Shown here in pieces: positions 11,364-64,000 of a stretch of 64,000 nt of DNA (within the stretch, counting starts at the first letter, position 1; the number at the start of each line of letters is the position of its first letter). The notes under the pieces were generated by a model. It did no database searches and was not told where the DNA came from. It saw only the letters and a list, made by a program, of their open reading frames with translations. The DNA is from Burkholderiales bacterium (lineage in GTDB: Bacteria > Pseudomonadota > Gammaproteobacteria > Burkholderiales > SG8-39), in the NCBI GenBank assembly GCA_036406675.1, contig DASXAO010000047.1, forward strand, positions 4,513-68,512, given 5' to 3'. The translations under genes and the position numbers were made by a program.

Positions 11364-11411
11364 CTGCTGCGGTCGCGCTCTCTCTTAAATTCTTCCCCGT
11401 CGAAGCGTTTT

Positions 11412-11451: not shown

Positions 11452-11474
11452 CTTTTTTATAGCATCGGTGCCCC

Positions 11475-13074: not shown

Positions 13075-13096
13075 TGAAAGGCGCTTTGCCAGTCTG

Positions 13097-14332
13097 ATGC
13101 AGCCTCTTCGCTTCGCCACCGCCGGCAGCGTCGACGACGGCAAGAGCACCCTCATCGGGCGCCTGCTCTACGACGCGCGCGCGCTGCAGGAAGACCAGGT
13201 CGCCGCGGTGGAGAGGGCGTCGCTGCGCCGCGGCGCCGGCGAGCTCGACCTCTCGCTCGTCACCGACGGGCTCGAAGCCGAGCGCGAGCAGGGCATCACC
13301 ATCGACGTCGCCTACCGCTACTTCGCCACGCCGGTGCGCAAGTTCATCATCGCCGACTCGCCCGGCCACGAGCAGTACACGCGCAACATGGCCACGGGGG
13401 CGAGCAACGCCGACGCGCTGGTGCTGCTGCTCGACGTCACCAGGCCGCTGCTGCCGCAATCGCGCCGCCACCTCGTCATCGCGCGGCTGCTCGGAATCCG
13501 CCACGCGATCGTGTTCGTGAACAAGCTCGATCTCGCCGGCTACGCGCGCGCGGCCTACGAGCGCGTGCGCGCCGAGCTCGAAGCCTTCGCCGCGCCGCTG
13601 CGCTTCGATTCGCTGGTGTGCATTCCGGGCTCGGCGCTGCGCGGCGACATGGTGGTCGAGCGCGGCGAGCGCCTCGACTGGTACCGCGGGCCGACGCTCC
13701 TCGAGCGGCTGGAGAGCGTGCCCGCCTCGACCGACCGCGGCGCGGCCGGCCCGCTGCGCTTTCCGGTGCAGCTCGTCTCGCCGCCGCGCGGCGGCCACGC
13801 GCGCGCCTACATGGGACGCATCGAGTCCGGCCACGTCCTCGCGGGCGCGCCGGTGGTCGCCCTGCCCGGCGGCCGCACGACCCGGGTGCGCCACATCGTG
13901 GTCCACGGCGCCGAGCGCGAGATCGCCGTCGCCGGCGATTCGGTGTCGCTCGTGCTCGCCGACGAGCTCGACCTCGCGCGCGGCGACCTGCTCGCCGACG
14001 CGGCGCAGCCGCCGCGCGAGGCGCGCTCGCTCGAGGCCGCGCTCATCTGGCTCGGCGCCGAGCCGCTGCGGCCGGCGGCGCGCTACCTCGTGCAGCTCGC
14101 CTCGCGCCGCGTGGCCGGCAAGGTGGTCGAGCTGCAAAGCCGCCTCGACATCGACACGCTCGGCGAACGCGCGGTGGAGGGCAACGTGATGGCGAACGAC
14201 ATCGTCAACGTGCGCCTTTCGCTGCAGGCGCCGCTGTTTGCCGATTCCTACGAGGCCGTGCGATGCACCGGCGCGCTCATCCTGATCGACGAGACCACGA
14301 ACCAGACGGTGGCGGCCGCGCTGGTGCGTTGA
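13097..14332 (+). CDS. cysN: Sulfate adenylyltransferase subunit 1 (GTPase), no fused APS-kinase domain
   Basis: GSVDDGKSTLIGRL (G1), DSPGHEQY (G3), NKLD (G4). At 411 aa it ends without a CysC domain. Confidence 0.9.
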   Translation: MQPLRFATAGSVDDGKSTLIGRLLYDARALQEDQVAAVERASLRRGAGELDLSLVTDGLEAEREQGITIDVAYRYFATPVRKFIIADSPGHEQYTRNMATGASNADALVLLLDVTRPLLPQSRRHLVIARLLGIRHAIVFVNKLDLAGYARAAYERVRAELEAFAAPLRFDSLVCIPGSALRGDMVVERGERLDWYRGPTLLERLESVPASTDRGAAGPLRFPVQLVSPPRGGHARAYMGRIESGHVLAGAPVVALPGGRTTRVRHIVVHGAEREIAVAGDSVSLVLADELDLARGDLLADAAQPPREARSLEAALIWLGAEPLRPAARYLVQLASRRVAGKVVELQSRLDIDTLGERAVEGNVMANDIVNVRLSLQAPLFADSYEAVRCTGALILIDETTNQTVAAALVR

Positions 14333-14348
14333 TGGGAAAGCAAGCTCC

Positions 14349-53992: not shown

Positions 53993-54355
53993 CTACCGGG
54001 TCGGAACGAAGGAGGCCGAGCCGGACTCGAGCGTCATGCGGCCCTCGTACCGGGTTTCGTCCAGGGTGAACGCGATGTTCTTCTTTGGCGGATAGGACGT
54101 CAGAAGGGCCATTCCGTACGACACGTCCCTGGCATGAAACGAAGTCTGTATCCACCGCGGGTCGGCGGTGTGCGGATTGCGTGCGAGGCCCGCGACGATG
54201 GCCTGGATAGCGTCGTAGTGCGCCGGGCTTGTCGCCTTGATCCCTTCCATGGCGCCGGGCGCATTCAGGTTTACGTGGCGCGGCGGCCGCGCATCCTGCG
54301 CGAAGGCGAATGAATAGAGGGCGGAAAGCAGAATTGCAGTGATCGAGCGCAGCAT
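53993..54355 (-). CDS. Secreted hypothetical protein (120 aa)
   Basis: Signal peptide MLRSITAILLSALYSFAFA/QD. No recognisable domain. Confidence 0.55.
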   Translation of the reverse strand: MLRSITAILLSALYSFAFAQDARPPRHVNLNAPGAMEGIKATSPAHYDAIQAIVAGLARNPHTADPRWIQTSFHARDVSYGMALLTSYPPKKNIAFTLDETRYEGRMTLESGSASFVPTR

Positions 54356-54431: not shown

Positions 54432-55910
54432 TCAGGCGGTGGGCCGGTGCAGGTAGCACCCACGCGGCGGGCCGAGCACCTTCCCGTTCTCGCACACGAG
54501 CTCGCCGCGCAGGAAGGTGGCCTTCACCCGCGCGGAAAGCTCGAGACCCTCGAAAGGCGTGTAGCCCTGGGTCGATTCGGAATCGGCGGAGTGGATCGTC
54601 CAGCTCTCGCGCGGTTCGACGAGCGCGAGGTCCGCGTCGAAGCCTTCCGCGATGTCGCCTTTCGCGTTCGCTCCGAAGCGGCGCGCCGGATTGGCGCTCG
54701 TCAGCGCCGCGATGCGGTTGTAGCTCACTCCTCTCCTGCTGCCCTCGGACACCAGGGCGGGAAGAAGGTATTCGGTTCCGCCGAAGCCCGATTTCGCCAG
54801 CCAGATATTTCCAAGCGCGTTCTTCGCCGCCTTGGTTTCGTGGCGGCAGCAGGCGTGGTCGCTCACCACCCAGTCGATCGCGCCTTCGGCGAGCTTCTGC
54901 CAGAGGTACTCGACGTCCTCTCGCGGCCGGATCGGCGGATTCACCTTGGCGAGCACGCCCGCTTTCGAATTCGTATCCAGCATCAGGTGGCCGATCGTGA
55001 CCTCGCGACGGAAATCGATGTGCGGGAAGAGGGCCTGCATCTGGAGCGCCGCGTCGAGCGCCTTTCTCGAGCTCAAGTGGAGCAGATTGATGTTCGGCAG
55101 CGCGCTCTCGGACGCAAGGTAGGCGGCGATGAAGACGGCGAGGCCTTCGGAATGCGGCGGCCGCGCGGCGTGGTATGCGGCGAGGCCCGAGAGCTTGCCC
55201 TCCCGCTCCACCATCCTGCTGTACGCGGTCATGATCTCGGCGGTCTCGCAGTGCAGCGACAGGCTGATCTGCGCCGCCTTGCGCGGAAAGCGCTCGCGCG
55301 CCGCCTGCACCCCGCGCATCACGAACTCGAAGTGCGCGTAGTCGTAGCGCTCGTCCTCGCCGATCATCAGGAAATCTCGCTGGCTGTCGGAGCGCCCGTG
55401 CAGGCCGTGCGAGCCGTAGAACATGAAGATCTTGAACGAGGCGACGCCGTGCTTCTCCACCAGCTCGGGGATCTCGCGGACATGAGCGGCGTCCATGGGC
55501 GCGAGGTGGTAGCCGTAGTCGACGTGGAAGCGCCCCTCGGAAAGCTTCAACACCTCGGGAAAGAACGCCGCGTACGGCCCGCCGCGGTTCAGGTAGTACT
55601 GGCCGGTCCTGAAGTAGTTGAGGCTCGTGGTCACGCCGCCCTGCGCCGCGGCGCGGCTCTCGCTCACCGCGTCTTCGGCGAGGGGCGCGTAGATGCCGGT
55701 GTGCATGTGCGCGTCGACCACGCCCGGGAACGCCAGACGGCCTTTGCCTTCGTAGACGTTCTTCGCTTCCCTGGGATCGATGGCCGGAGCAATTCTTGAG
55801 AATTTATCGCCGGTGATGGCGATGTCGGCTTCGCGCGGCGCATCGGCGTCCGGGCGAACGACGCGCACGTTCCGGATCAGCAGGTCGTACTTGCTACCGG
55901 CTTCGGCCAA
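54432..55910 (-). CDS. Cyclic amidohydrolase (D-hydantoinase/dihydropyrimidinase/enamidase-like)
   Basis: In-frame TTG at 55910 after GGAGAA gives (M)AEAGSKYDLLIRN. GVVDAHMH (HxH), SFKIFMFY (carboxylated-Lys position), LSLHCE, LLHLSS, VVSDHACC (Asp). The first ~54 codons of ORF 54432..56072 overlap the LeuD-like gene. Confidence 0.85.
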   Translation of the reverse strand: MAEAGSKYDLLIRNVRVVRPDADAPREADIAITGDKFSRIAPAIDPREAKNVYEGKGRLAFPGVVDAHMHTGIYAPLAEDAVSESRAAAQGGVTTSLNYFRTGQYYLNRGGPYAAFFPEVLKLSEGRFHVDYGYHLAPMDAAHVREIPELVEKHGVASFKIFMFYGSHGLHGRSDSQRDFLMIGEDERYDYAHFEFVMRGVQAARERFPRKAAQISLSLHCETAEIMTAYSRMVEREGKLSGLAAYHAARPPHSEGLAVFIAAYLASESALPNINLLHLSSRKALDAALQMQALFPHIDFRREVTIGHLMLDTNSKAGVLAKVNPPIRPREDVEYLWQKLAEGAIDWVVSDHACCRHETKAAKNALGNIWLAKSGFGGTEYLLPALVSEGSRRGVSYNRIAALTSANPARRFGANAKGDIAEGFDADLALVEPRESWTIHSADSESTQGYTPFEGLELSARVKATFLRGELVCENGKVLGPPRGCYLHRPTA

Positions 55911-56376
55911 GGCGCTTCTCCAGGTGGGCGAGCAGTCCGCCGTCGCGCACCATCTGCGCGAGGTGCGTCGGGATCGGCTCGCATTGCAGCGATTCGCCGG
56001 TAGTGAGGTTCGCGATTTGGCCCTTTTCGAAATCGACTCGAAGCTTGTCGCCGTCGCGAATGCGTTTCGCATCGGCCGAGACCACGGCCGGGAGGCCGAG
56101 GTTGAGCGCGTTGCGGTAGAAGAGGCCGGCGAACGATTCGGCGACCAGCGCCGCCACGCCGAGATGCTTGAGCGCCGCCGGCGCCTGCTCGCGCGAAGAG
56201 CCTGCGCCGAAATTGCGGCCGCCGACCACGACGTCGCCCGGCTTCACGCTGCGCGCGAATTCGGGCAGCACGGCCTCGAGGCAGTGCGGCGCGATCTCGG
56301 CGAGGCCGAACTTCATGTAGCGCCCCGGCGCGATCGCGTCGGTGTCGACGTTGTCGCCCAGGACCCAGGCCCTCAT
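55894..56376 (-). CDS. Aconitase-family dehydratase small subunit (LeuD-like)
   Basis: ATG at 56376 (ATGA overlap with the large-subunit stop). DNVDTDAIAPGRY, GRNFGAGSSREQA. Confidence 0.85.
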   Translation of the reverse strand: MRAWVLGDNVDTDAIAPGRYMKFGLAEIAPHCLEAVLPEFARSVKPGDVVVGGRNFGAGSSREQAPAALKHLGVAALVAESFAGLFYRNALNLGLPAVVSADAKRIRDGDKLRVDFEKGQIANLTTGESLQCEPIPTHLAQMVRDGGLLAHLEKRLGRSR

Positions 56377-57626
56377 TGCAGCAGCTCGCGCGGGTCGCAG
56401 ATGCGGCCGGCCACGGCCGTGGCGGCGACCGTGTACGGCGAGCCGAGGTACACCTGCGCCGACGCCGCGCCCATGCGGCCCTGGAAGTTGCGCGCGGTGC
56501 TCGAGATCGCCACCATGTTTTCGGGCAGGAGATGCTCGCCGTAGCCGGCGCAGAGACCGCAGCCGTTCGGCAGCAGCTCCGCCCCGGCCTGCAGAAGGAC
56601 TTGCAGCGTTCCCTCGCTTTGCGCCGCGTTCTGATCGCGCAGGCTGGCGGGCGCGACGAGTAGCCGGATGGCCGACTTGCGTCCCTTCAAGACGCGCGCC
56701 GCCATCCGCAGATCTTCGAGCTTCGCCCCGGTGCAGGCGCCGATGTAGGCGAGCTGCGGCCGCACATTCGTGAACTCGGTTACCGCCCGGGTATTGGCTG
56801 GGCTGTGCGGTGCCGCGACCTGCGGCGCGAGCTCGCTGGCATTGAAGCGGTGGTGCGCGAGAAGTGGCGCGTCTTCGTCGCTCCTCCACACTTCTGGATC
56901 ATTCAAGCCTAGAAAATCGTGAGTGGTTGCATCCGAAGCGATCAACCCCGTCTGAGCGCCGAGCTCGGCGGCCATGTTGCACAGGGTCATGCGCTCCTGC
57001 ATCGGCAGCGCGCGGATCGCCGGGCCGCGATACTCGACCGCCTGGTATTGACCGCCGTCGAGGCCGAAGCGGCCGATGAGGAACAGGATCGCGTCCTTGG
57101 CCGCGACGCCGGGGGCAAAGGCGCCGTCGAAATCCATGGCGATGGTGTGCGGCACCTTGAGCCAGATCTCGCCGGTGACGAGGACCCCGAGCATCTCGGT
57201 CGCGCCTACGCCGAACATGTACGCGGCAAAGGCGCCGCCGGTGGGGGAGTGGCTGTCGCCGCCGACCGCGAACATGCCCGGCTTCAGGTGGCCGCGCTCG
57301 GGCAGCACGACGTGGCAGATGCCCTGCTCGTCGTGGAAGTTGTCGATGCCGGCCTCTCGCACCCAGTCGCGCGTGATGCGGATGATCCTGCGGCTCTCCT
57401 CGTCGTAGGCGGGGACGTAATGGTCGGTGATGAGGACGACCTTCGACGGGTCCCACAGCTTCGCGCCGAGGCGCTCGAGCATCGGCTTGAGGCGCCGCGG
57501 CCCGCCCGAGTCGTGGATCATCGCGAGATCGACCTTGCAGGTGACGATCTCCCCGGGTGTCACCGAGCTGCGGCCCGCCGCGCGGGCGACCAGCTTCTGG
57601 GCCAACGTTGCCGGCATCTTCGACAC
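56373..57626 (-). CDS. Aconitase-family dehydratase large subunit (LeuC-like, Fe-S)
   Basis: GTG start. VGGDSHSPTGGAFA. Cluster Cys in IGACTGAK and NGCGLCAG. STARNFQGRMG. Confidence 0.88.
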   Translation of the reverse strand: MSKMPATLAQKLVARAAGRSSVTPGEIVTCKVDLAMIHDSGGPRRLKPMLERLGAKLWDPSKVVLITDHYVPAYDEESRRIIRITRDWVREAGIDNFHDEQGICHVVLPERGHLKPGMFAVGGDSHSPTGGAFAAYMFGVGATEMLGVLVTGEIWLKVPHTIAMDFDGAFAPGVAAKDAILFLIGRFGLDGGQYQAVEYRGPAIRALPMQERMTLCNMAAELGAQTGLIASDATTHDFLGLNDPEVWRSDEDAPLLAHHRFNASELAPQVAAPHSPANTRAVTEFTNVRPQLAYIGACTGAKLEDLRMAARVLKGRKSAIRLLVAPASLRDQNAAQSEGTLQVLLQAGAELLPNGCGLCAGYGEHLLPENMVAISSTARNFQGRMGAASAQVYLGSPYTVAATAVAGRICDPRELLQ

Positions 57627-57627
57627 C

Positions 57628-58392
57628 TTATCCCTGTTCCAGGAACTCCCGCAGCGCCTTCTCCGGCGGCTTGACGAAGTTCGAGCGGCGGCTGACCTTC
57701 GCCATGCCGAGCGCGCGCAATTTCACCGCCATTTCCGCGCTCTTGGCGATGAGCGTCACCCCGTTCACCACCGGCGCGCCGTCCATCTCCGTGCCGCCGA
57801 AGAGCATCATCGGCAGCCCGCCGGCCGGCACGATGACGTCGGCGCCGGCATCGAGCAGTGCGCGGCATTCGCGCTCCCATTTGGGATAGAGGGCGTCATG
57901 GGACTTCTTGTCGGCGAAGGCGTCGATGAAGTCCTTGACGCTGGCGTCGACCGCCCGCACTCCGACGACGCGCTGCTGAAGGCCGTAGCGGATCACCTGG
58001 TCCTCGTGCCAGGGGATGAACACCGGGTTGATGGTGACGAGCCCGAGCTTGCGCCCGAGCGTGCAGGCGTGGAAGAGCGTTGTCTCGCCCAGGCCGAGCA
58101 CGGGGAGGTCGACCACCGATTTCACCTCGGCGAGGCCCGCGTCCTGGAAATGCGTGATCGCCATCGCGGCATAGCCCTGCTTCTCGGCCTCGACCGCATT
58201 GCGAATCAGATTGCGCGCGATCCGGAACTCGGTGATCGCGTGCGTGGTCGTCGCGGGCGGCGTGGTGGTGTGGAACGTCGCCTCGAAGTCCGGCTCGAGG
58301 ATCGACTTCAGATGCGCCTCCACCTTGGCGATGTAAGGCGCCATGTGGATCTTGTCCGTCGCGCCCTGGAACCAGATCTTGTGCTTGCTCAT
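57628..58392 (-). CDS. Asp/Glu/hydantoin-racemase-fold protein (non-canonical active site)
   Basis: Aligns by eye to hydantoin racemase blocks. AMAITHFQDAGL corresponds to the usual ..IACFGDPGL.., and VIVPAGGLPMM to ..ILGCAGM... Both catalytic Cys positions appear substituted. Confidence 0.7.
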   Translation of the reverse strand: MSKHKIWFQGATDKIHMAPYIAKVEAHLKSILEPDFEATFHTTTPPATTTHAITEFRIARNLIRNAVEAEKQGYAAMAITHFQDAGLAEVKSVVDLPVLGLGETTLFHACTLGRKLGLVTINPVFIPWHEDQVIRYGLQQRVVGVRAVDASVKDFIDAFADKKSHDALYPKWERECRALLDAGADVIVPAGGLPMMLFGGTEMDGAPVVNGVTLIAKSAEMAVKLRALGMAKVSRRSNFVKPPEKALREFLEQG

Positions 58393-58419
58393 CGACGAAC
58401 CTCGGGTCGAAAAACCGAA

Positions 58420-58484
58420 AATCAGGGACAGACCACGTTTATTTTCTGTTTGTCAGCAAAAGAAAACGTGGTCCGTCCCTGATT
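58420..58484. repeat. Large hairpin repeat: 21-nt arms AATCAGGGACAGACCACGTTT / AAACGTGGTCCGTCCCTGATT (1 mismatch), 23-nt spacer
   Basis: Read directly. It occupies most of the 98-nt gap between the cyclase-like and racemase-like genes. The arm is 17/21 identical to GAAAATCGGGGTCTGACCCCG of the other repeat family. Confidence 0.75.
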
Positions 58485-58490
58485 ATGGGG

Positions 58491-59270
58491 TCATGGCGTT
58501 TCCACCAATGCAATTGCACGCAAAGGACTGCCGCTGCCGTTGCGGATCTTGAGCGGGGCTGCGATCACGACCGCGCCGGTGGGCGGGAGCTGGTCGAGGT
58601 TGGCGAGGCATTGCAGGCCATAGCGGCCCGCGCCGTGCATGAAGTAGTGGCAGGGGTAGGGCGGGCGAAGATGCTGCGCCTGGCCGGCGTCGGTGCCGAT
58701 CGACTCGGTGCCGAAGCCCAGGAGGTCGCGTTCCTCGACCAGGAACTTCACCGCGCCGACGTCGGGTCCCGGGGTGTGCTGCCCGGTCTCGTCGTAGTTC
58801 TGGTAGGCGACCGGGTCGGAGCGCTTGGACCAGTCGGTGCGCATCAGCACCCAGGCTTTCGGCGGGATACGTCCGTGTTTCTTCTCCCAGGTTTTGATCC
58901 ACCCGACAGTGAGAAGGAAGTCGGCGTCTTTCGCCGCTTCTTCGCTGCAATCCAGGACCGAGGCCGGGCCGACGAAGCGCTCCGGCGCGATGCTGTCGGT
59001 GGCGTTCTGCGGCAGGTCCTTGCCCGAGATCCAGTGGATCGGCGCGTCGAAGTGCGTGCCGGTGTGCTCGCCGCAGGAGAAGTTGTTCCAGTACCAGGCG
59101 GGCCCGCGCTCGTCGTAGCGCGATACCTCCTCGATCCGGAACGGCCACGCCTGGCCCATCTCGGGTGGAAGCGAGATGTGCGGGAATTCGGGCGACAAGG
59201 TCTGGGTGAGATCGATGACGCGAATCTTCCCCGAGAGCAATTCCTTGGCGAGAGAGGCGAGGGTAGTCAT
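58491..59270 (-). CDS. Cyclase-family (kynurenine-formamidase-fold) metal hydrolase
   Basis: ATG at 59270 (ATGA overlap with the upstream gene). GEHTGTHFDAPIHW is the HxGTHxDxPxH motif. Confidence 0.82.
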   Translation of the reverse strand: MTTLASLAKELLSGKIRVIDLTQTLSPEFPHISLPPEMGQAWPFRIEEVSRYDERGPAWYWNNFSCGEHTGTHFDAPIHWISGKDLPQNATDSIAPERFVGPASVLDCSEEAAKDADFLLTVGWIKTWEKKHGRIPPKAWVLMRTDWSKRSDPVAYQNYDETGQHTPGPDVGAVKFLVEERDLLGFGTESIGTDAGQAQHLRPPYPCHYFMHGAGRYGLQCLANLDQLPPTGAVVIAAPLKIRNGSGSPLRAIALVETP

Positions 59271-60496
59271 GTCGACAGCTCTCTCTCCAGGGCCTTCGGA
59301 TTGTCCCGCCAGCGCTCGAGCCACTCCTGCGCCACGTCGCCGGGGTAGAGGTCCTCGACGCCTTCGCGCAGCGCCCGTACGATCGCGGCGGCGAGCGCCG
59401 CGGGAGCGAGCTTGGGCGGAGGAAGGAGCTGGCTCCACTCGTCGTCGATCGGCCCGGGAAACACGTTGACCACTCGCACGCCGGCTGGACGCATCTCGGC
59501 GCGCAGGCATTGCGCGAGCGACTGCGCAGCGGCCTTCGACGCAGAGAAGGTGCCGTGCGGCGGAAAATTGGCGAGCGCATAGATCGACAGCAGGTTGACC
59601 CAGGCCACCGCGCTCGCCTGGCCGTCGGCGCCGCGCGCGCGCATCGCCGGCCCGAATTCCTGGGCGAGGCGCAGCAACCCGAAGTAGTTGACGTCCATCT
59701 CGGCGCGCGCGGTCTCCACGCCCTGGCGGCCCGCGATGCCGTGCGTGCGGTGGAGCTCGGCGTTGCTAACCAGGATGTCGACCTTGGCGCCGATCTCGGC
59801 CGCAAGCTCGCGCACGTTCTTCGAATCGGTGACATCCAGCGGCACCAGGGTGACCTGCGGAAGCTTCTGCAGCTCGTCGAATCCCGGGAAGCGCTTCCAC
59901 GGCTCCGCGTATCCGACCCAGATGAGCTCGGCGCCCGCCGCGGCGAGCGCCTTGACGAGCGCCTGGCCGAGGCCGCTCTTGCCGTCGGTGACGAGCACCT
60001 TGCGATGCTTCGGGTCGCAGGCGAATTCGCGCAATTGGCGGTCTTCGGCCATGTTCACGTTCTCCTTGTCGGGTAAGCCCACGAGCACCGCCTGCCCGGC
60101 GCGGTCGAGGCGCGCCGTGACCCGCAGCCTCGCGGGGGCGTCCTGAACGTCGGCGTGAAGATGAGCGACCACGGTCGGGCCGCAGGTCAGCTTCGCGAGT
60201 CCGAGGCGCCACGGCAGGCGTTCGCGGAAGAAAAGATCGTTGCTGTGGTGCAGGACGGTGCTTGCGAGCAGCTCGGCCTCACCGGATTGAGGTTTCCAGA
60301 ATATTCCTGTCGAGAGGCAATTTTGGCAGGCCTCGCGCGGCGGGTACTGGACCGTCCCGCAATCGCGGCACTGCTGCAATTCGAACCTTCCCAGCGCCGC
60401 CGCTGCAGTGAGGCCGAGCGCCACGCGGCTGCGCGCCGCCGGCGGCAGCGTAGGCAGCCGGGTCCTGAGGATGGGATTTTTCCTCTTAAGGATCAT
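59267..60496 (-). CDS. Fusion: DUF35 (Zn-ribbon + OB-fold) domain + SDR-fold domain
   Basis: ATG at 60496 inside ORF 59267..61150. N-terminus has CRDCGTVQYPPREACQNC (CxxC..CxxC) plus an OB region. C-terminus has VLVTDGKSGLGQAL Rossmann motif and ..S-x12-FSASK where classical SDRs have YxxSK. Confidence 0.75.
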   Translation of the reverse strand: MILKRKNPILRTRLPTLPPAARSRVALGLTAAAALGRFELQQCRDCGTVQYPPREACQNCLSTGIFWKPQSGEAELLASTVLHHSNDLFFRERLPWRLGLAKLTCGPTVVAHLHADVQDAPARLRVTARLDRAGQAVLVGLPDKENVNMAEDRQLREFACDPKHRKVLVTDGKSGLGQALVKALAAAGAELIWVGYAEPWKRFPGFDELQKLPQVTLVPLDVTDSKNVRELAAEIGAKVDILVSNAELHRTHGIAGRQGVETARAEMDVNYFGLLRLAQEFGPAMRARGADGQASAVAWVNLLSIYALANFPPHGTFSASKAAAQSLAQCLRAEMRPAGVRVVNVFPGPIDDEWSQLLPPPKLAPAALAAAIVRALREGVEDLYPGDVAQEWLERWRDNPKALERELST

Positions 60497-61650
60497 GAGG
60501 CGAGGATTGCAGCGCCGCTGCCGAGGCCGCGGTCGTAGTTGATCATGCCGAATCCGCTCACCAATCCGATCTTCGCATCGCGCACCTGCCGCCCGGGCGC
60601 GTCGCCGGTGAGCTGCCGGATCGCTTCCACCATGCCGAGAAACCCGCCCGCCGCGCCCGCCTGCCCCGCGGAAAGCTGGCCGCCGCTCGTGTTGAGCGGG
60701 AAGTCGCCGTCCCAGGTGAAGCGGTGCTGGCGCAAGAAGGCTGGTCCCTCGCCCTTGCCGCAGAAGCCGAGGTCCTCGAGCTGCATCAGCGTGATGACCG
60801 GGTAGTCGTCGTAGGCCTGCACGAAATCGATGTCGCGCGGCGAGCAGCCCGCCTGGGCGTAGAGCCCGTCGCGATCGAGCGCCCAGCCGGCGCGTAGCTG
60901 GACTGGATCGGCGCTGAAGGCGTTGTGCCGCTCGATCGTGCCCAGCAGGCGGGCATGAGGAAGACCGAGACTTTTCGCTTTTTTTTCCGATAAGACCAGA
61001 AATCCTTCGGCGCCCGCACACGGCATGACGCAGTCGAAAAGATGCAGCGGCTCGGCGATCGGGCGTGCGCGGAGATACTCCTCCAAGGTCAATTCCTTCT
61101 TGAACAAAGCGTGCGCGTAACGCAGCGCGTTGGCACGCTGTGCCACGCAAAGCTTGCCGAAGTCCTCGCGCCTAACGCCGTAGCGTTGCATGTAGTGCGC
61201 AGTCAGGAAAGCGAAGCTCGCGTTCGGGCCGCCGGCGCCGTAGGGATAGACCGCGTCGCGCGCGAACTGGCTGAAATTCGCCAGCGTCAGGCGGAAGGAA
61301 TCCACGTGGTTGGTGTCGCCGGCGAGGCAGGCGACGACCTCGGCGTCTCCGGCCTGCACCGCTCGCGCGGCGCGCCTCACGGCGACGACGCCGCTTGCGC
61401 CGCCGAGCGGCACGTGGTCGAGCCAGCGCGGCGAGAGGCCGATGTGCTGGGTGAAGCCGATGGCCGTGTCGGGCGCGAGCGTGAAGCTCGACACCGTCAG
61501 GCCATCAATCTCCTCTTTTTTCAGCTTCGACTTCTCCAGAAGGGAGGAAAAGGCTCTTGCCAGCCACCAGTGCGCCGAGCGGATGGAGTAGCGCACGTAC
61601 GGCACGGTGACCGGCGCCGCGAGGACCACGCCGTGGTAAGGCTGCCTCAT
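60493..61650 (-). CDS. Thiolase-fold (SCP-x type) protein apparently lacking nucleophilic Cys and catalytic His
   Basis: ATG at 61650 (ATGA overlaps at both ends). VPLGGASGVVAVRRAARAVQAGDAEVV aligns to ..NNNCATGSTAL....IQGG.. (C->G). NTSGGQLSAGQAGAAGG aligns to ..NPSGGL.SKGHPLGATG.. (H->Q). Confidence 0.75.
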   Translation of the reverse strand: MRQPYHGVVLAAPVTVPYVRYSIRSAHWWLARAFSSLLEKSKLKKEEIDGLTVSSFTLAPDTAIGFTQHIGLSPRWLDHVPLGGASGVVAVRRAARAVQAGDAEVVACLAGDTNHVDSFRLTLANFSQFARDAVYPYGAGGPNASFAFLTAHYMQRYGVRREDFGKLCVAQRANALRYAHALFKKELTLEEYLRARPIAEPLHLFDCVMPCAGAEGFLVLSEKKAKSLGLPHARLLGTIERHNAFSADPVQLRAGWALDRDGLYAQAGCSPRDIDFVQAYDDYPVITLMQLEDLGFCGKGEGPAFLRQHRFTWDGDFPLNTSGGQLSAGQAGAAGGFLGMVEAIRQLTGDAPGRQVRDAKIGLVSGFGMINYDRGLGSGAAILAS

Positions 61651-63110
61651 TGCGGCCGGCGCTTCCTGTTGCGCAGGTCGAAGCGCTTGTCCGGATCGAA
61701 GGCGAAATCGGCCAGCTTCGCCTTCTGCACCTTGTTGGTCGAGGTGGTCGGCACGGCGTCGATGAAGGCGACGTAGCCAGGCGCCTTGAAGTAGGCGAGC
61801 CGCGCGAGGCAATGGTCTTGAATCGACCGTGCAAGCTCCAGATCCGCGGTTTCTTTGTTTTGCAAAACAATACAGGCAAAGACTTCTTCGTCGCGGACTG
61901 GGTCGGGTGCGGCGATGACCGCCACCTGGGCGACCGCGGCATGCTCGGCGAGCACGGCTTCCACCTCGAGTGCGGCGATGTTTTCCCCGGCGCGGCGGAT
62001 GATGTTCTTGATCCGGTCAACGAAATGCAGCTGGCCGTCCTCGCCGCGGCGGACCGCGTCGCCGGTGTGGAACCAGCCGCCGCGCCAGGCCGCTTCGGTG
62101 GCCGCCTCGTCCTTCAGGTAGCCGGAAAAGAAACCTCGGCGCGGATCGGCACCGGCCTGCCGGACCAGCAATTCGCCTTCCTTGGTGATCTGGGTTTCGA
62201 CTTCTTTGGGGGGAAAGCCGAAGCACCGCGTGCCGACGTGGCGCGGCTCGCGGCTCGCGGAGATCATCGCGCCGCCGCCGGTCTCGGTCATGGCCCAGGA
62301 CTCGGCCAGCGGGAAGCCGAAGCGCGCCTCGAAGGCGGCGTGGTCGCGCGGGTTCGCATTGGCGCCGAAGCCGAAACGCACGCGGTGCGAGCGATCGAGG
62401 TCGGAGGGTTCCTGGGAGAGAAGCATCGCCGGCATGACGCCGAGATAGTGCACGATCGTCGCGCGCGAGGCGGCGACGTCCCGCCACCAGGTCTTGGGAT
62501 GAAAGCGGTCGAGCTGCACCACGCAGCCCGCCGCCAGGATCATGGCCGTGGTCGACACCGCGAGCGCGTTCATGTGGAAAAGCGGCAGCGGTGTGATGAG
62601 CCGCTCCTCGCCTTCGCGCACGGAGCACAAGCCGCCCAATTCCAGATAGCGCCTGCCGACGTTGAGGAAGTAGAAGTCGTCGAGCAGGCAGCCCTTCGGC
62701 TGGCCGGTGGTGCCGGAGGTATAAAGCAGCGCGCACTCGGAGGCGTCCGCGCGGGGCCCGGGGGAAGGGGGGCTCTCCAGCGTATCGCGCGTGATGACGG
62801 CGCCGGCTTCGCTGTGCGCAAGCACGTATTCGAGCTCGGCGGCGCGATAGTCCGGATTGACGGGCACCACTGCCGCGCCGAGCGAATTGAGCGCGAGGAA
62901 GTGCAGCAGGAATTCCGGGCAGTTCGGCAGCCGCAGCGCCACTCGGTGGCCGGCGCCATATCCCGCCTCGCGGTACCGCCGGGAAATGGAATCGACCCGG
63001 CTCAAGGCATCGCCGTAGCGGTACTCGATGCCTTCGGACAAAACTTGAAGGAAGGGCTTCGCGCCGTGCGCGCGGGCGGTGCGCTCGAAGGCGGAGAAGA
63101 CCGTCGTCAC
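61647..63110 (-). CDS. AMP-dependent acyl-CoA synthetase/ligase (short, 487 aa)
   Basis: GTG at 63110 inside ORF 61647..63938 (start uncertain, no clear SD). YTSGTTGQPKGC, WAMTETGG, WFHTGD, TSTNKVQK. Confidence 0.8.
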   Translation of the reverse strand: MTTVFSAFERTARAHGAKPFLQVLSEGIEYRYGDALSRVDSISRRYREAGYGAGHRVALRLPNCPEFLLHFLALNSLGAAVVPVNPDYRAAELEYVLAHSEAGAVITRDTLESPPSPGPRADASECALLYTSGTTGQPKGCLLDDFYFLNVGRRYLELGGLCSVREGEERLITPLPLFHMNALAVSTTAMILAAGCVVQLDRFHPKTWWRDVAASRATIVHYLGVMPAMLLSQEPSDLDRSHRVRFGFGANANPRDHAAFEARFGFPLAESWAMTETGGGAMISASREPRHVGTRCFGFPPKEVETQITKEGELLVRQAGADPRRGFFSGYLKDEAATEAAWRGGWFHTGDAVRRGEDGQLHFVDRIKNIIRRAGENIAALEVEAVLAEHAAVAQVAVIAAPDPVRDEEVFACIVLQNKETADLELARSIQDHCLARLAYFKAPGYVAFIDAVPTTSTNKVQKAKLADFAFDPDKRFDLRNRKRRPQ

Positions 63111-63161
63111 TCGCTGGATGGTAAGATGCCCCGCGCCGTCTGGACAACCGGAGGAGGGTCC

Positions 63162-64000
63162 TTGAACGCACGTTGTTTTGCCGCCGCGCTGGCGCTTGCC
63201 TGCATAGGCCCGGCAGCGACTGCCGCGGACACCATCAGCGCCACGCACGTATTCCCAGCCTCCCTGGTGTACTCGCGCAGCTTCCTCGAGTTCGTGAAGA
63301 AGGCGAACGAAGCGGGCAAGGGCGTGTTCTCGATCCAGGTGCGCGGCGGGCCCGAGGCCATCGGCATGATGGAGCAGCCCGGTGCGGTGCGCAGCGGCGT
63401 GGTCGACATGGTCTACAGTCCGTGCGCGTTCTACGCCGCGGCGGTGCCCGAGTGCGACGCGGTCAGCGCGAGCACCGTCGACGGGCCGACGGCGCGCAAG
63501 AACGGCGGCATCGACCTGCTGAACCAGATCCACCAGAAGCGCGCAGGGGTGGTGCTGCTCGGCTGGGTCGACAGCGGAATCCGCTTCAACCTGTGGTCGA
63601 CCAAGGAGCCGAAGCTCGACTCGAGCGGGCACATCGACATCAAGGGCTTCAAGGTGCGCGGCAACCCGATCTACAACGCGTTCCTCACCAATTACCTCGG
63701 CGCGCAGGTGATCAACCTGCCCTCGACCGAGCTCTACACCGCGCTCGAGCGCGGCACGGTCGACCTCACGGCGTGGACCCAGATCGGCCTGATGGACCTG
63801 AACTGGGACCGCTACATCAAGTACCGCATCCTGCCGGACTTCTTCGAAACCGACCTCATGATCCTCGCCAACCAGAAGAAGTGGCAGTCGCTCGCGCCGA
63901 AGACCCGCGAGATCCTGCAGCGCGTCGCGATCGAGCACGAGGTCTCCAGCCTGAAAGACCTGCAGGCGCTGTGGAAGAAGGAGGAGGCCGAGCTCGCCAA
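63162..64000 (+). CDS. TRAP transporter DctP-type solute receptor, 3' end cut by window edge (not in the supplied ORF track)
   Basis: My own translation. TTG at 63162 after GGAGGAGGG (alternative in-frame ATG at 63126) gives (M)NARCFAAALALACIGPAATAA/DTISATHVFPASLVYSRSFLEFVKKANEAGKGVFSIQVRGGPEAIG...GFKVRGNPIYNAFLTNYLGAQVINLPSTELYTALERGTVD... The frame is open to base 64000. Confidence 0.75.
   Translation, partial: MNARCFAAALALACIGPAATAADTISATHVFPASLVYSRSFLEFVKKANEAGKGVFSIQVRGGPEAIGMMEQPGAVRSGVVDMVYSPCAFYAAAVPECDAVSASTVDGPTARKNGGIDLLNQIHQKRAGVVLLGWVDSGIRFNLWSTKEPKLDSSGHIDIKGFKVRGNPIYNAFLTNYLGAQVINLPSTELYTALERGTVDLTAWTQIGLMDLNWDRYIKYRILPDFFETDLMILANQKKWQSLAPKTREILQRVAIEHEVSSLKDLQALWKKEEAELA

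What the first reader, a model, noticed from the sequence alone, without database searches (positions are those of the whole stretch)
54432..63110. Eight-gene translationally coupled operon combining CoA-thioester enzymes with cyclic-amide hydrolases; it matches no pathway I can name
Minus-strand gene order:
1. acyl-CoA ligase (61647..63110)
2. thiolase-fold protein (60493..61650)
3. DUF35-SDR fusion (59267..60496)
4. cyclase/formamidase-fold hydrolase (58491..59270)
5. a 98-nt gap holding a hairpin repeat
6. hydantoin-racemase-fold protein (57628..58392)
7. LeuC-like subunit (56373..57626)
8. LeuD-like subunit (55894..56376)
9. hydantoinase/dihydropyrimidinase-like amidohydrolase (54432..55910)

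Four junctions are 4-nt ATGA overlaps (61647-50, 60493-96, 59267-70, 56373-76). One has a 1-nt gap and one a 17-nt overlap. A TRAP DctP-type receptor is divergent at 63162.

Some pieces recall N-heterocycle or nicotinate catabolism: an enamidase-type amidohydrolase, a LeuCD-like dimethylmaleate hydratase and a maleate isomerase of the racemase superfamily. Other pieces recall CoA-dependent side-chain cleavage: a thiolase-fold protein with a DUF35 partner, as in steroid Ltp2-ChsH2 or benzylsuccinate BbsAB. Three of the eight proteins appear to have substituted catalytic residues (see the separate findings). My inference is a catabolic route for a TRAP-imported carboxylated cyclic amide or imide. 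It would proceed via ring opening, hydration or isomerisation, CoA activation and retro-aldol or thiolytic cleavage.
Basis: inference. Interest (0 to 1): 0.75.

Follow-up and report, generated by a model that had tools for sequence, protein, structure and literature searches.

The report
Auxin-catabolite breakdown operon, new variant
The first four genes of this soil-bacterium operon match the published iad pathway, which splits an oxidised form of the plant hormone auxin into isatin and acetyl-CoA; they are joined to four extra enzymes and a different transporter, which points to an undescribed, oxygenase-free way of feeding oxidised auxin into that pathway.

Summary

It is wrong that the operon matches no known pathway. 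Genes 1-4 (ligase, thiolase-like, DUF35-SDR, cyclase) are homologues of iadF-G-H-I, in the same order. These belong to the Variovorax auxin-degradation (iad) locus, and identities are 52/68/72/74%. The cyclase is 63% identical to a crystallised isatin hydrolase. The thiolase-like protein is a Sal/Ltp2-type retro-aldolase.

I infer this core route:
- dioxindole-3-acetate to its CoA ester
- retro-aldol cleavage to isatin plus acetyl-CoA
- hydrolysis of isatin to isatinate

The locus is new in these respects:
- It lacks the iad oxygenase (IadCDE), IadJ, IadAB and the ABC transporter.
- It has a TRAP transporter instead.
- It adds a cysteine-less hydantoin-racemase-like protein, a LeuCD-like hydro-lyase and an allantoinase-like amidohydrolase.

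The racemase-like family travels with iadFGHI-like aldolase clusters, most of them without the oxygenase, in Alpha- and Betaproteobacteria and with a simpler thiolase-DUF35-ligase set in an actinobacterium. It often sits next to an organic-hydroperoxide reductase (Ohr). The hydro-lyase and amidohydrolase come from modules that contain a fumarate-reductase-like flavoprotein and a PrpB-like lyase.

My inference is an add-on that brings 2-oxindole-3-acetate, via its ring-opened aryl-succinate and aryl-malate forms, to the core. Confidence is about 0.85 for the core and about 0.35 for the add-on.

The parts
63162..64000 (+). Divergent TRAP solute-binding protein gene (DctP family). It runs off the window. 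DctQ and DctM follow in near-identical contigs, and then a 2Fe-2S subunit and a molybdopterin subunit.
   Evidence: Translation shows a signal peptide. There is an SD GGAGGAGG before the TTG start. Near-identical contigs L001-L006 show DctP-DctQ-DctM, and the longer ones (L001-L004) continue into Fer2/Fer2_2 and MoCoBD. The best solved relative is 4mnc/4mni, E 3e-40.
61647..63110 (-). IadF-like AMP-forming acyl-CoA ligase, 487 aa, with the P-loop YTSGTTGQPKG at residue 130.
   Evidence: Pfam AMP-binding plus AMP-binding_C. It is 52% identical to Variovorax IadF and in the same position. Motif position.
60493..61650 (-). IadG-like thiolase-fold retro-aldolase, 385 aa. It lacks the Cys nucleophile (GGASG) and carries a YDDY motif.
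   Evidence: Thiolase_C_1. Best solved relatives are 9MYR CtSal and 6OK1 TcLtp2. GGASG is near-invariant and YDDYP invariant in about 90 homologues. It is 68% identical to Variovorax IadG.
59267..60496 (-). IadH-like fusion, 409 aa. The N-terminal part is a DUF35 zinc ribbon (C43-x2-C46-x10-C57-x2-C60) plus OB fold. The C-terminal SDR-like domain has Phe317 in place of the catalytic Tyr and TDGKSGLG in place of TGxxxGxG.
   Evidence: Pfam zf-ChsH2, OB_ChsH2_C and adh_short. The four Cys are invariant across 26 family members, and the YxxxK motif is not conserved. GTFSASK occurs in nearly all homologues, Variovorax included. It is 72% identical to Variovorax IadH.
58491..59270 (-). IadI-like isatin hydrolase, 259 aa, of the cyclase family. 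The metal motif HTGTHFDAPIH is at residue 69.
   Evidence: It is 63% identical over 256 aa to PDB 5nnb isatin hydrolase A, phmmer E 1e-110. It is 74% identical to Variovorax IadI.
58393..58490 (-). Intergenic hairpin. The arms are at 58420-58440 and 58464-58484, and a U-rich tract follows. It is a possible attenuator, terminator or RNA-stability element, and it is lineage-specific.
   Evidence: Fold energy -43.8 kcal/mol, z -6.6. It is unique in the window. In L015, L017 and L018 the arms are conserved and the loops vary. It is absent in L007 and L019, where the genes abut.
57628..58392 (-). Hydantoin/allantoin-racemase-like protein of an 'HFQD' subfamily, 254 aa. His81 and Ala190 replace the two catalytic cysteines.
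   Evidence: PF01177. The alignment to 3qvj/3qvk shows C79 aligned to His and C184 to Ala. The motif is conserved down to 33% identity. The gene is linked to iad-like aldolase clusters and to Ohr in other genomes.
56373..57626 (-). LeuC-like large subunit of an aconitase-family hydro-lyase, 417 aa. The Fe-S cysteines C298, C356 and C359 are present.
   Evidence: NF001614 scores 507.7 bits against a cutoff of 385. It falls below the LeuC equivalog cutoffs. Cys positions. Homologues at 64-67% identity sit in LeuC-LeuD-FAD-lyase modules.
55894..56376 (-). LeuD/DmdB-family small subunit, 160 aa, with GSSRE at residue 59.
   Evidence: TIGR02087 scores 184 bits against a cutoff of 109. Motif.
54432..55910 (-). 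Allantoinase/dihydropyrimidinase-like cyclic amidohydrolase, 492 aa, with a complete binuclear-metal ligand set (H68, H70, K160, H220, H278, D351).
   Evidence: Alignment to E. coli allantoinase 3e74. It is below every equivalog cutoff. A 62.5% orthologue lies next to a FAD-binding protein in Rhodococcus gordoniae.

Best explanation
This is an iad-type operon for degrading oxidised auxin (oxindole-acetates). It comes from an uncultured soil Burkholderiales lineage.

**Core, genes 1-4** (homology shown; chemistry inferred from relatives):
1. The IadF-like ligase makes the CoA thioester of dioxindole-3-acetate (3-hydroxy-2-oxindole-3-acetate, DOAA).
2. The IadG-like protein is a thiolase-fold retro-aldolase. 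I infer that the DUF35 zinc-ribbon/OB domain of the IadH-like protein holds and shapes it, as in the Sal and Ltp2 complexes. The SDR half of the IadH-like protein has lost its catalytic Tyr.
3. The aldolase deprotonates the tertiary C3 hydroxyl through the Tyr of its YDDY motif. This cleaves the substrate into isatin and acetyl-CoA.
4. The IadI-like isatin hydrolase opens isatin to isatinate.

**Add-on, genes 5-8 plus TRAP** (inferred). There is no IadCDE oxygenase and no IadJ, so the cell probably imports already-oxidised auxin rather than IAA. The likely substrates are 2-oxindole-3-acetate (oxIAA) and/or DOAA.
- The HFQD racemase-like protein deprotonates the acidic C3-H of oxIAA with a single His base. 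It would act as a racemase or tautomerase, or possibly start an O2-dependent hydroxylation.
- The allantoinase-like amidohydrolase opens the lactam to 2-(2-aminophenyl)succinate or -malate.
- The LeuCD-like Fe-S hydro-lyase interconverts 2-(2-aminophenyl)maleate and 2-(2-aminophenyl)malate. The latter is ring-opened DOAA.
- The succinate-to-maleate dehydrogenation is encoded in sister loci by a fumarate-reductase-like flavoprotein. It is not encoded in this window.
For: **Core.**
- Gene order matches iadF-G-H-I, at 52/68/72/74% identity to the Variovorax genes.
- Locus L065 was verified as a canonical iad locus, A-B-C-D-E-F-G-H-I-J-K. It matches the published gene table (PMC12852158).
- In V. 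paradoxus CL014, deleting iadF, G, H or I accumulates C10H9NO4, assigned as DOAA, and lowers anthranilate (PMC12633357).
- The cyclase is 63% identical to isatin hydrolase 5nnb and keeps the metal motif.
- The best structural relatives of IadG are the retro-aldolases CtSal (9MYR) and TcLtp2. Gly sits at the position of the nucleophile, and the catalytic-base Tyr is conserved as YDDY in about 90 homologues (motif roles from PMC12329534).
- The DUF35 domain has the canonical C-x2-C-x10-C-x2-C pattern, and all four Cys are invariant.
- The SDR Tyr-to-Phe change is family-wide.

**No oxygenase.** No IadA-E, IadJ or IadK homologue occurs in the 64-kb window or in any TRAP-type locus.

**Add-on.**
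- The racemase-like gene follows iadI in nearly all TRAP-type loci.
- Homologues at 35-41% identity lie in iadFGHI-like clusters in Sulfitobacter, Sagittula, Pukyongiella and Agrobacterium, and a 33% homologue lies beside a simpler thiolase-DUF35-ligase set in Rhodococcus erythropolis.
- An Ohr hydroperoxide reductase lies within three genes in 5 of the 8 homologue loci inspected.
- The amidohydrolase lies next to a FAD_binding_2 flavoprotein in L031, L036 and Rhodococcus gordoniae.
- LeuCD homologues at 64% identity form LeuC-LeuD-FAD-PrpB-like-lyase modules. A PrpB-like lyase sits between leuD and the amidohydrolase in L033-L035.
- (2-Aminophenyl)succinate is an accepted intermediate of anaerobic auxin degradation (PMC8360864).
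Against: - No enzyme here was assayed, and the organism is uncultured.
- The window encodes no dehydrogenase to take aryl-succinate to aryl-maleate. The proposed add-on route is therefore incomplete in cis.
- LeuCD and the amidohydrolase are dispensable in sister loci. Some have the racemase-like gene only, and some have it with the amidohydrolase only.
- The racemase-like gene also occurs beside a full IadCDE-J set in Sulfitobacter. It is not simply a substitute for the oxygenase.
- It also occurs once away from any iad genes, in Pseudosulfitobacter.
- The 2025 preprint interprets IadH as an alcohol dehydrogenase that yields dioxindole. That conflicts with my reading of a dead SDR domain.
- IadG has Asp where CtSal needs Cys304 and TcLtp2 has His. 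The proton donor is therefore unknown.
- The strong hairpin with a U-tract between iadI and the racemase-like gene could uncouple the two halves in this strain.
Confidence: 0.6

Rival explanations
1. Two unrelated units lie side by side. One is an iadFGHI core for DOAA. The other is an independent module (racemase-like, LeuCD-like, amidohydrolase) for a different substrate, such as a substituted succinate, a hydantoin or a cyclic imide. Proximity would reflect gene shuffling and not a shared pathway.
For: - A strong hairpin with a U-tract separates the halves in this strain.
- Close homologues of LeuCD and of the amidohydrolase occur in modules without any iad genes, in B. plantarii, Variovorax PDNC026 and Rhodococcus gordoniae.
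- The accessory content varies between sister loci.
Against: - The racemase-like gene is linked to iad-like aldolase clusters across three bacterial classes.
- In relatives the cyclase and racemase genes abut with little or no gap.
- There is no room for a promoter in the 27 nt after the hairpin.
- All accessory families found in sister loci fit one chemical theme: lactam opening, then succinate, maleate and malate forms, then lyase.
Confidence: 0.2
2. This is a pathway for quinoline-4-carboxylate or 2-quinolone-4-carboxylate.
1. The neighbouring molybdenum enzyme hydroxylates C2.
2. The amidohydrolase opens the six-membered lactam to 2-(2-aminophenyl)fumarate.
3. The racemase-like protein isomerises this to the maleate.
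4. LeuCD hydrates it to 2-(2-aminophenyl)malate, which closes to DOAA and enters the IadFGHI core.
For: - A two-subunit molybdenum enzyme (Fer2/Fer2_2 plus MoCoBD) follows the TRAP genes in near-identical contigs and in L018 and L027.
- Every gene gets a role and no extra dehydrogenase is needed.
- From memory, not checked here: DOAA and 2-hydroxyquinoline-4-carboxylate are chemically interconvertible in plant auxin catabolism.
Against: - The Mo enzyme is absent next to TRAP in most sister loci.
- Its best solved relative is a membrane aldehyde dehydrogenase, not a quinoline oxidoreductase.
- The racemase-like protein lacks the Cys nucleophile that maleate isomerases use, and it does not match them.
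- Loci with the racemase-like gene only, or with it and the amidohydrolase and flavoprotein but without LeuCD, do not fit.
- Hydrolysis of an aromatic 2-quinolone lactam is chemically unfavourable (my own knowledge).
Confidence: 0.08
3. This is the reader's reading: a wholly unassigned catabolic route for a cyclic amide or imide, related to nicotinate or hydantoin metabolism. The components would be an enamidase, a dimethylmaleate hydratase and a maleate isomerase, combined with CoA-dependent side-chain cleavage.
For: The family-level resemblances are real. In sister loci, LeuCD-like genes accompanied by a PrpB/Dml-like lyase recall the E. barkeri DmdAB/Dml pair.
Against: - Genes 1-4 have a published homologous cluster with genetic and metabolomic evidence.
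- The cyclase is an isatin hydrolase homologue.
- No equivalog model of the nicotinate or hydantoin pathways is reached.
Confidence: 0.05

Closest known systems
iad auxin-degradation locus of Variovorax paradoxus CL14, also found in Achromobacter and Bradyrhizobium (PMC9613470, PMC12633357)
   Same: It has contiguous iadF-G-H-I homologues in the same order, at 52-74% identity. The IadH DUF35-SDR fusion, the Phe-for-Tyr change and the YDDY aldolase motif are the same.
   Different: It has no IadCDE Rieske mono-oxygenase, no IadJ, no IadAB, no ABC binding proteins and no MarR seen nearby. It has a TRAP transporter instead. It adds racemase-like, LeuCD-like and amidohydrolase genes that are absent from all canonical loci fetched.
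Steroid and bile-acid side-chain retro-aldolases Ltp2-ChsH2(DUF35) and Sal-Shy(DUF35) (PDB 6OK1, 9MYR; PMC12329534)
   Same: It has a thiolase fold without the Cys nucleophile and a Tyr base in a YDxx motif. It has a C4 zinc-ribbon/OB DUF35 partner fused to a second domain. The predicted chemistry is the same: cleavage of a beta-hydroxyacyl-CoA with a non-oxidisable alcohol into a ketone and a short acyl-CoA.
   Different: The motif is YDDY, with Asp where Sal has the essential Cys304 and Ltp2 has His. There is no Tyr344 equivalent. DUF35 is fused to a degenerate SDR domain and not to a MaoC hydratase. The substrate is an oxindole, not a steroid.
Isatin hydrolases (PDB 5nnb, 5nna, 5nmp, 4j0n)
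   Same: It is 63% identical over the full length and keeps the HxGTHxDxPxH metal motif.
   Different: No difference is detectable by sequence. Activity was not assayed.
Hydantoin and allantoin racemases (PDB 3qvj, 3qvk, 5lfd)
   Same: It has the same fold family, PF01177. These are its only solved relatives.
   Different: Both catalytic cysteines are replaced, by His81 and Ala190, in an invariant HFQD motif. The genomic partners are aldolase clusters and Ohr, not hydantoinases or carbamoylases.
TRAP-racemase-like-Ohr-IadG-IadH-IadI cluster on Pukyongiella litopenaei plasmid p1. It is unstudied and is the nearest analogue in a cultured organism.
   Same: It has a homologous TRAP system (DctM 50%, DctP 36%), a racemase-like gene (40%), IadG/H/I homologues (60/43/53%) and no Rieske oxygenase in view.
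   Different: It has Ohr and a second racemase-like paralogue. It lacks LeuCD and the amidohydrolase. Its ligase is distal.
LeuC-LeuD-FAD_binding_2-PrpB-like lyase module on Burkholderia plantarii p1 and a Variovorax sp. PDNC026 plasmid. Its substrate is unknown.
   Same: It holds the closest cultured homologues of the window's LeuCD, at 64% and 50-53%. Its flavoprotein and lyase are homologues of those found in sister loci L031 and L033-L035.
   Different: It has no iad genes, no amidohydrolase and no racemase-like gene. The window has only the LeuCD part.

Membership tests
iad-type auxin degradation locus | Contiguous iadF, iadG, iadH and iadI homologues in that order | tested here: met
   tblastn gives 52/68/72/74% identity to the Variovorax loci, in the same order. 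The reference locus L065 was verified by Pfam.
iad-type auxin degradation locus | IadCDE Rieske oxygenase system and IadJ dehydrogenase, which turn IAA into DOAA | tested here: not met
   There is no homologue in the 64-kb window or in any TRAP-type locus. They are present in about 40 canonical loci.
iad-type auxin degradation locus | IadA/IadB marker genes (indolepyruvate:ferredoxin-oxidoreductase-like) and IadK ABC binding proteins | tested here: not met
   There are no hits in the window. TRAP DctPQM is present instead.
iad-type auxin degradation locus | Degrades IAA to anthranilate via DOAA, isatin and isatinate | not testable with these tools
   The source is an uncultured MAG. This needs an enzyme or growth assay.
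Sal/Ltp2-type thiolase-fold retro-aldolase with DUF35 partner | SCP2-thiolase fold lacking the nucleophilic cysteine | tested here: met
   The best PDB hits are 9MYR, 4U4E and 6OK1. GGASG aligns to the canonical AACASG. The motif is near-invariant in homologues.
Sal/Ltp2-type thiolase-fold retro-aldolase with DUF35 partner | Catalytic-base Tyr at the first position of the YDxF/Y motif | tested here: met
   YDDY aligns to YDCY of CtSal and YDHF of TcLtp2. YDDYP is invariant. The role of the motif is taken from PMC12329534.
Sal/Ltp2-type thiolase-fold retro-aldolase with DUF35 partner | Known proton donor: Cys304 of Sal or Tyr344 of Ltp2 | tested here: not met
   The third motif residue is Asp. 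The region equivalent to Tyr344 reads GGQLSAGQAG, with no Tyr.
Sal/Ltp2-type thiolase-fold retro-aldolase with DUF35 partner | DUF35 partner with a C4 zinc ribbon and an OB fold | tested here: met
   zf-ChsH2 and OB_ChsH2_C are found in the adjacent gene. The C43/C46/C57/C60 spacing is C-x2-C-x10-C-x2-C and the Cys are invariant.
Classical short-chain dehydrogenase/reductase (for the IadH C-terminal domain) | Catalytic YxxxK and the TGxxxGxG cofactor motif | tested here: not met
   The sequence is F317-S-A-S-K321 and T-D-G-K-S-G-L-G. Tyr and Lys vary across the family.
Isatin hydrolase (cyclase family PF04199) | Close full-length similarity to characterised isatin hydrolases, and the HxGTHxDxPxH metal site | tested here: met
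   It is 63% identical to 5nnb over 256 aa, phmmer E 1e-110. The motif is at residue 69.
Hydantoin/allantoin racemase | Two catalytic cysteines facing the substrate | tested here: not met
   In the alignment to 3qvj, Cys79 aligns to His81 and Cys184 to Ala190. The same holds in all homologues.
Cyclic amidohydrolases (allantoinase, dihydropyrimidinase, hydantoinase, dihydroorotase) | Binuclear metal ligands HxH, carbamylated Lys, His, His and Asp | tested here: met
   H68/H70, K160, H220, H278 and D351 align with E. coli allantoinase 3e74.
Cyclic amidohydrolases (allantoinase, dihydropyrimidinase, hydantoinase, dihydroorotase) | Reaches a curated equivalog score for a named enzyme | tested here: not met
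   The best score is allantoinase TIGR03178 at 210 bits, against a cutoff of 358. All others are also below their cutoffs.
Aconitase-family two-subunit hydro-lyase (LeuCD/HacAB/DmdAB type) | Family models above cutoff and three Fe-S cysteines | tested here: met
   NF001614 scores 507.7 against 385 and TIGR02087 scores 184 against 109. C298, C356 and C359 are present by inspection. The LeuC and LeuD equivalog cutoffs are not reached, so it is not isopropylmalate isomerase proper.
   No specific model is reached. The racemase-like protein gives no PDB hit to maleate isomerase at E<=0.01.

The most novel reading that the evidence does not exclude
The cysteine-less 'HFQD' hydantoin-racemase-like protein may be a cofactor-independent oxygenase.
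- Its single His base would enolise 2-oxindole-3-acetate, or its CoA ester, at C3.
- The carbanion would react directly with O2 to give the 3-hydroperoxide.
- An Ohr-type thiol peroxidase would reduce this to dioxindole-3-acetate. Ohr is encoded next to the racemase-like gene in many genomes and presumably in trans here.

This would be a new reaction for the racemase fold. It would define an oxygenase-free entry of the main plant auxin catabolite, oxIAA, into bacterial metabolism. The amidohydrolase, LeuCD and flavoprotein set would then provide a parallel O2-independent route through aryl-succinate, aryl-maleate and aryl-malate.
Probability: 0.2. Interest if true: 0.8.

Novelty: new variant of a known kind. 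Interest (0 to 1): 0.6.

Why it matters
Bacterial removal of auxin shapes root development, and the iad pathway is being engineered into root commensals (PMC12633357). This locus shows that the side-chain-cleaving core (IadFGHI) also circulates without the oxygenase that attacks IAA. It is abundant in uncultured soil Burkholderiales and also occurs in marine roseobacters, rhizobia and, in simpler form, an actinobacterium. In these loci the core is usually paired with a TRAP or an ABC-type transporter, and always with an uncharacterised racemase-like protein.

- **Ecology.** If these bacteria consume oxIAA or DOAA, they recycle the main inactivated form of auxin and do not interfere with auxin signalling. 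That is a different ecological role.
- **Mechanism of the published pathway.** The analysis suggests a correction. IadG/IadH look like a Sal/Ltp2-DUF35-type retro-aldolase with a dead SDR domain and a new YDDY catalytic motif. They do not look like a ketothiolase plus an alcohol dehydrogenase.
- **Open targets.** The HFQD racemase-like family and its Ohr partner are a concrete, testable lead to new enzyme chemistry.

Tried and rejected
- An exact look-up of the ligase found no record.
- The search for homologous proteins with the DUF35-SDR protein returned only sequences at 85% identity or more from the same uncultured lineage. It gave no distant context. I therefore did not spend the other two searches.
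- The first, 26-sequence alignment was too diverse for the search for related loci. A six-sequence alignment worked.
- Some literature searches found nothing. These were isatin hydrolase with thiolase, quinoline-4-carboxylate links, the ligand of 4MNC, and racemase, Ohr and TRAP in auxin degradation. My recollection that 4MNC/4MNI hold benzoylformate is unverified.
- I first misread iadA/iadB as a molybdenum enzyme. The V. boronicumulans gene table corrected this: they are indolepyruvate:ferredoxin-oxidoreductase-like.
- The Streptomyces orthologue of the amidohydrolase sits among ABC-transporter genes and an IS element, which is uninformative.
- The Rhodococcus gordoniae cyclase is only 24% identical to the window's isatin hydrolase. 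That cluster is an analogy and not an orthologous pathway.
- The part of the window's flank that I scanned (20-44 kb) holds unrelated housekeeping and transport genes. The genes just downstream are small secreted proteins, a cytochrome b, an esterase and a PALP enzyme.
- I considered a role for genes 5-8 downstream of isatinate. I rejected it because none of these families fits decarboxylation or oxidation of an aryl-glyoxylate.
- I considered steroid or benzylsuccinate side-chain cleavage. I rejected it because of the isatin hydrolase and the iad homology.
- My GC3-based gene caller was unreliable in this 67% GC DNA. I used homology and Pfam instead.

Full report
**1.

The junctions are as described:
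- Four ATGA start/stop overlaps.
- One TAA-G-GTG junction.
- One 17-nt overlap for a TTG start.

Pfam and NCBIfam confirm each family. The exact proteins belong to a MAG called 'Burkholderiales bacterium' (HEY1287921-28, a 76-kb contig), and all carry only generic names. A DctP gene starts divergently at 63162 behind a strong ribosome-binding site. Near-identical metagenome contigs show that DctQ and DctM follow beyond the window end, and the longer ones continue into a 2Fe-2S subunit and a 745-aa molybdopterin subunit.

**2. The decisive lead: the cyclase is an isatin hydrolase homologue**

The 'cyclase' is 63% identical over its full length to crystallised isatin hydrolase A (5nnb; phmmer E 1e-110). 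It keeps the HxGTHxDxPxH metal motif. Isatin is an intermediate of the aerobic auxin (IAA) degradation route encoded by the iad locus of Variovorax, Achromobacter and Bradyrhizobium (PMC9613470).

That locus contains, in order (PMC12852158):
- iadF, an AMP-ligase
- iadG, a 'thiolase'
- iadH, an 'SDR'
- iadI, a 'cyclase'

A 2025 preprint reports that deleting any of these in V. paradoxus CL014 accumulates C10H9NO4, assigned as dioxindole-3-acetate (DOAA), and lowers anthranilate (PMC12633357).

**3. Test of homology**

I aligned family representatives of the DUF35-SDR protein and scanned one genome per species. tblastn of the window's proteins against the 80 loci returned shows that nearly every locus long enough carries the four-gene F-G-H-I block. 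In the Variovorax, Pseudacidovorax and Xenophilus loci the identities to the window are about 52, 68, 72 and 74%.

I checked one of these loci, L065 from V. paradoxus NBRC 15149, by Pfam. It has the published order:
- IadA (TPP enzyme) and IadB (POR/DUF6537)
- IadC (reductase)
- IadD and IadE (Rieske alpha and beta)
- F, G, H (zf-ChsH2 + OB + adh_short) and I
- J (SDR)
- two Peripla_BP_6 proteins

So genes 1-4 of the finding are iadFGHI homologues.

**4. How the core most likely works**

*IadG is a retro-aldolase, not a thiolase.*
- Its best solved relatives are CtSal (9MYR) and TcLtp2 (6OK1).
- These are thiolase-fold retro-aldolases that work in complex with a DUF35 domain (PMC12329534).
- The window protein has Gly at the position of the thiolase nucleophile (GGASG).
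- It keeps the catalytic-base Tyr in a YDDY motif. The counterparts are YDCY in Sal, YDHF in Ltp2 and HDAF in a true thiolase.
- GGASG is near-invariant and YDDYP invariant in about 90 homologues, Variovorax included.
- The third position is Asp, neither the Cys that Sal requires nor the His of Ltp2. This is a third variant of the active site, and its proton donor is unknown.

*IadH is a DUF35 partner with a degenerate SDR domain.*
- It carries the canonical C-x2-C-x10-C-x2-C zinc ribbon, invariant over 26 family members down to 34% identity.
- Its SDR domain has Phe in place of the catalytic Tyr in nearly all homologues.
- It has a degenerate glycine motif, and the Tyr/Lys pair varies freely across the wider family.

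*Inference.* IadH is the DUF35 scaffold of the aldolase with a catalytically dead SDR domain. It is not an alcohol dehydrogenase as annotated in the preprint. The preprint does not mention aldolase or DUF35.

The inferred chemistry is:
1. DOAA is converted to DOAA-CoA by the ligase.
2. Retro-aldol cleavage at the tertiary C3 alcohol gives isatin and acetyl-CoA.
3. Isatin is hydrolysed to isatinate.

This parallels C17 side-chain cleavage in steroids. Homology and motif conservation are shown here. The reaction itself is inferred.

**5. What is different here**

No homologue of IadA-E, IadJ or IadK exists in the 64-kb window or in any locus of this type. About 40 canonical loci have them all. 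Instead there is a TRAP system and four extra genes. These occur only in an uncultured Burkholderiales lineage, whose record titles point to soil and freshwater MAGs.

The accessory content varies between sister loci:

| Loci | Accessory genes |
|---|---|
| L029, L030, L037, L060 | racemase-like gene only |
| L024 (L023 is cut inside the amidohydrolase gene) | racemase-like plus amidohydrolase |
| L036 | racemase-like, amidohydrolase, then a FAD_binding_2 flavoprotein (soluble fumarate-reductase/TcuA-like) |
| Window type | racemase-like, LeuCD, amidohydrolase |
| L031 | window type, then the same FAD_binding_2 flavoprotein |
| L033-L035 | window type, with a PrpB-like lyase between leuD and the amidohydrolase |

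**6. The racemase-like protein**

Its only solved relatives are hydantoin and allantoin racemases. Both catalytic cysteines are replaced, by His81 and Ala190.

tblastn against plasmids found homologues at 33-41% identity that share the invariant HFQD motif. I inspected eight of these loci. Six of them carry iad-like aldolase genes:

| Organism | Gene arrangement |
|---|---|
| Sulfitobacter sp. THAF37 | C-D-E-F-G-H-I-J-rac, then a second thiolase/OB pair, TRAP and a ligase |
| Sagittula stellata E-37 | F-G-H-I-rac-NTF2-TRAP |
| Pukyongiella litopenaei | TRAP-rac-Ohr-G-H-I-rac2 |
| Agrobacterium pusense | Ohr-G-H-I-rac |
| Neorhizobium sp. SOG26 | ligase-Ohr, a gap, then rac |
| Rhodococcus erythropolis R138 | thiolase-DUF35-ligase-ALDH-rac-Ohr |

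In Shinella the racemase-like gene follows an aldehyde dehydrogenase and a hydrolase and is followed by Ohr.

An organic-hydroperoxide reductase (Ohr) therefore lies within three genes in five of the eight loci inspected. Three-substituted oxindoles have an acidic C3-H and autoxidise to 3-hydroperoxides (my own chemical knowledge). I therefore infer that this family acts on the C3-H of 2-oxindole-3-acetate (oxIAA). It could be a one-base racemase or tautomerase. The more novel reading is a cofactor-free oxygenase whose hydroperoxide product Ohr reduces to DOAA.

There is no Ohr in the window or in the 80 genome loci.

**7. The amidohydrolase and LeuCD**

*Amidohydrolase.*
- It keeps all binuclear-metal ligands.
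- It reaches no equivalog cutoff.
- Its 62.5% orthologue on Rhodococcus gordoniae pDND3A sits between a FAD-binding protein and a CoA-transferase. The FAD-binding protein is 41% identical to the L031 flavoprotein.
- On the opposite strand of that locus lie an IclR regulator, a CoA-ester lyase, a cyclase-family protein and a PrpD-family dehydratase.
- This looks like a non-orthologous replacement of almost every function of the window's operon. The cyclase there is only 24% identical, so the substrate may differ.

*LeuCD.*
- The closest cultured homologues are at 64% and 50-53% identity.
- They lie in a four-gene module, LeuC-LeuD-FAD_binding_2-PrpB-like lyase, on Burkholderia plantarii and Variovorax plasmids.

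*Common theme.* All accessory families fit one sequence:
1. Open a lactam to expose a substituted succinate.
2. Dehydrogenate it to the maleate or fumarate.
3. Hydrate it to the 2-substituted malate.
4. Cleave it.

With a 2-aminophenyl substituent these compounds are ring-opened oxIAA, its dehydro form, and ring-opened DOAA. A PrpB-like lyase acting on the last would give isatinate and acetate. (2-Aminophenyl)succinate is already an accepted intermediate of anaerobic auxin degradation (PMC8360864).

*The weak point.* This window encodes no dehydrogenase for step 2. Either that enzyme is encoded elsewhere, or the add-on in this strain handles compounds already at the maleate or malate oxidation level.

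**8. Other points**

- The Mo enzyme beside the TRAP genes is closest to a membrane aldehyde dehydrogenase (8gy3). It is present in only some sister loci. It might oxidise 2-aminobenzaldehyde or hydroxylate a heterocycle, and I leave it unassigned.
- The TRAP receptor's nearest structure is 4mnc/4mni.
- The hairpin between iadI and the racemase-like gene has a 21-bp stem followed by a U-rich tract. Its arms are conserved and its loops vary in the closest MAGs. It is absent in others, where the genes abut. It may attenuate or stabilise the transcript. There is no space for a promoter after it.

**9. Verdict**

The chemistry-level guess was good. The claim of no known pathway is wrong for genes 1-4.
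- The whole is a new variant of a known kind: an oxygenase-free, TRAP-linked iad-like operon with an uncharacterised accessory set.
- Confidence is about 0.85 that the core converts DOAA, or a close analogue, to isatinate. It is about 0.35 for the specific roles proposed for genes 5-8.

Noticed in passing
window 58420-58484; also L015 7369-7468, L017 5700-5830, L018 12006-12116: This palindromic element between iadI and the racemase-like gene has conserved 21-nt arms and loops of differing length and sequence. A T-rich tract follows it. It is absent in other close relatives. It could be a mobile palindrome, an attenuator or an RNA-stability element.
   Followed up: partly
L001 1593-4305, beyond the window's right end; also L018 and L027: A two-subunit molybdenum enzyme (Fer2/Fer2_2 plus a 745-aa MoCoBD subunit) follows DctM. 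Its best solved relative is the large subunit of a membrane aldehyde dehydrogenase (8gy3). It is present in only some sister loci and its role is unassigned.
   Followed up: partly
L104 8998-10272, L103 7998-9233, L101 7971-9195, L102 4313-8816, L105 6933-8750: A gene pair recurs in Alphaproteobacteria and Rhodococcus: an HFQD racemase-like protein and an organic hydroperoxide resistance protein (Ohr). It is usually beside IadG/H/I-like genes.
   Followed up: partly
L095 9529-16081 (Sulfitobacter sp. THAF37 plasmid): Downstream of a complete iadC-J set lies a second thiolase-like gene (59% to the window's IadG), a stand-alone OB-fold/DUF35 gene, a TRAP system and a second acyl-CoA ligase. This suggests a second side-chain-cleaving system for another indole acid.
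   Followed up: no
L099 8995-13061 (B. plantarii p1) and L100 (Variovorax sp. PDNC026 plasmid): A conserved module of LeuC-LeuD-FAD_binding_2-PrpB-like lyase, with a GntR regulator in B. plantarii. Its substrate is unknown. It looks like a route that oxidises and cleaves a substituted succinate.
   Followed up: partly
L097 (Rhodococcus gordoniae pDND3A) 1-14000: The cluster combines hydantoinase A/B, an amidase, PrpD, a cyclase, a CoA-ester lyase, IclR, a FAD-binding protein, the 62% amidohydrolase orthologue, a CoA-transferase and an MFS transporter. It is an apparent functional analogue of the window's operon built from different families.
   Followed up: partly
window 63111-63161: Only 51 bp separate the divergent start codons of the ligase and DctP. 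Both promoters and any operator must overlap coding sequence or each other. No regulator gene was seen next to the cluster.
   Followed up: no
window 53993-54355 (-): A small ORF of 120 aa with a signal peptide lies 76 nt downstream of the amidohydrolase on the same strand. A terminator-like site follows at 53975-53957. In relatives (L007-L014) this position holds a convergent two-component system instead.
   Followed up: no
window 61611-63998, both strands: Long stop-free reading frames run on both strands across the ligase/DctP region, about 780-800 codons each. This is a consequence of high G+C and is not evidence of extra genes.
   Followed up: no
L106 (Pseudosulfitobacter pseudonitzschiae plasmid) 8001-16723: Here an HFQD racemase-like gene lies away from any iad genes. 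It is near a three-subunit xanthine-dehydrogenase-family enzyme, an amidohydrolase and an ICL/PEP-mutase-family lyase. This context recalls N-heterocycle hydroxylation pathways.
   Followed up: no
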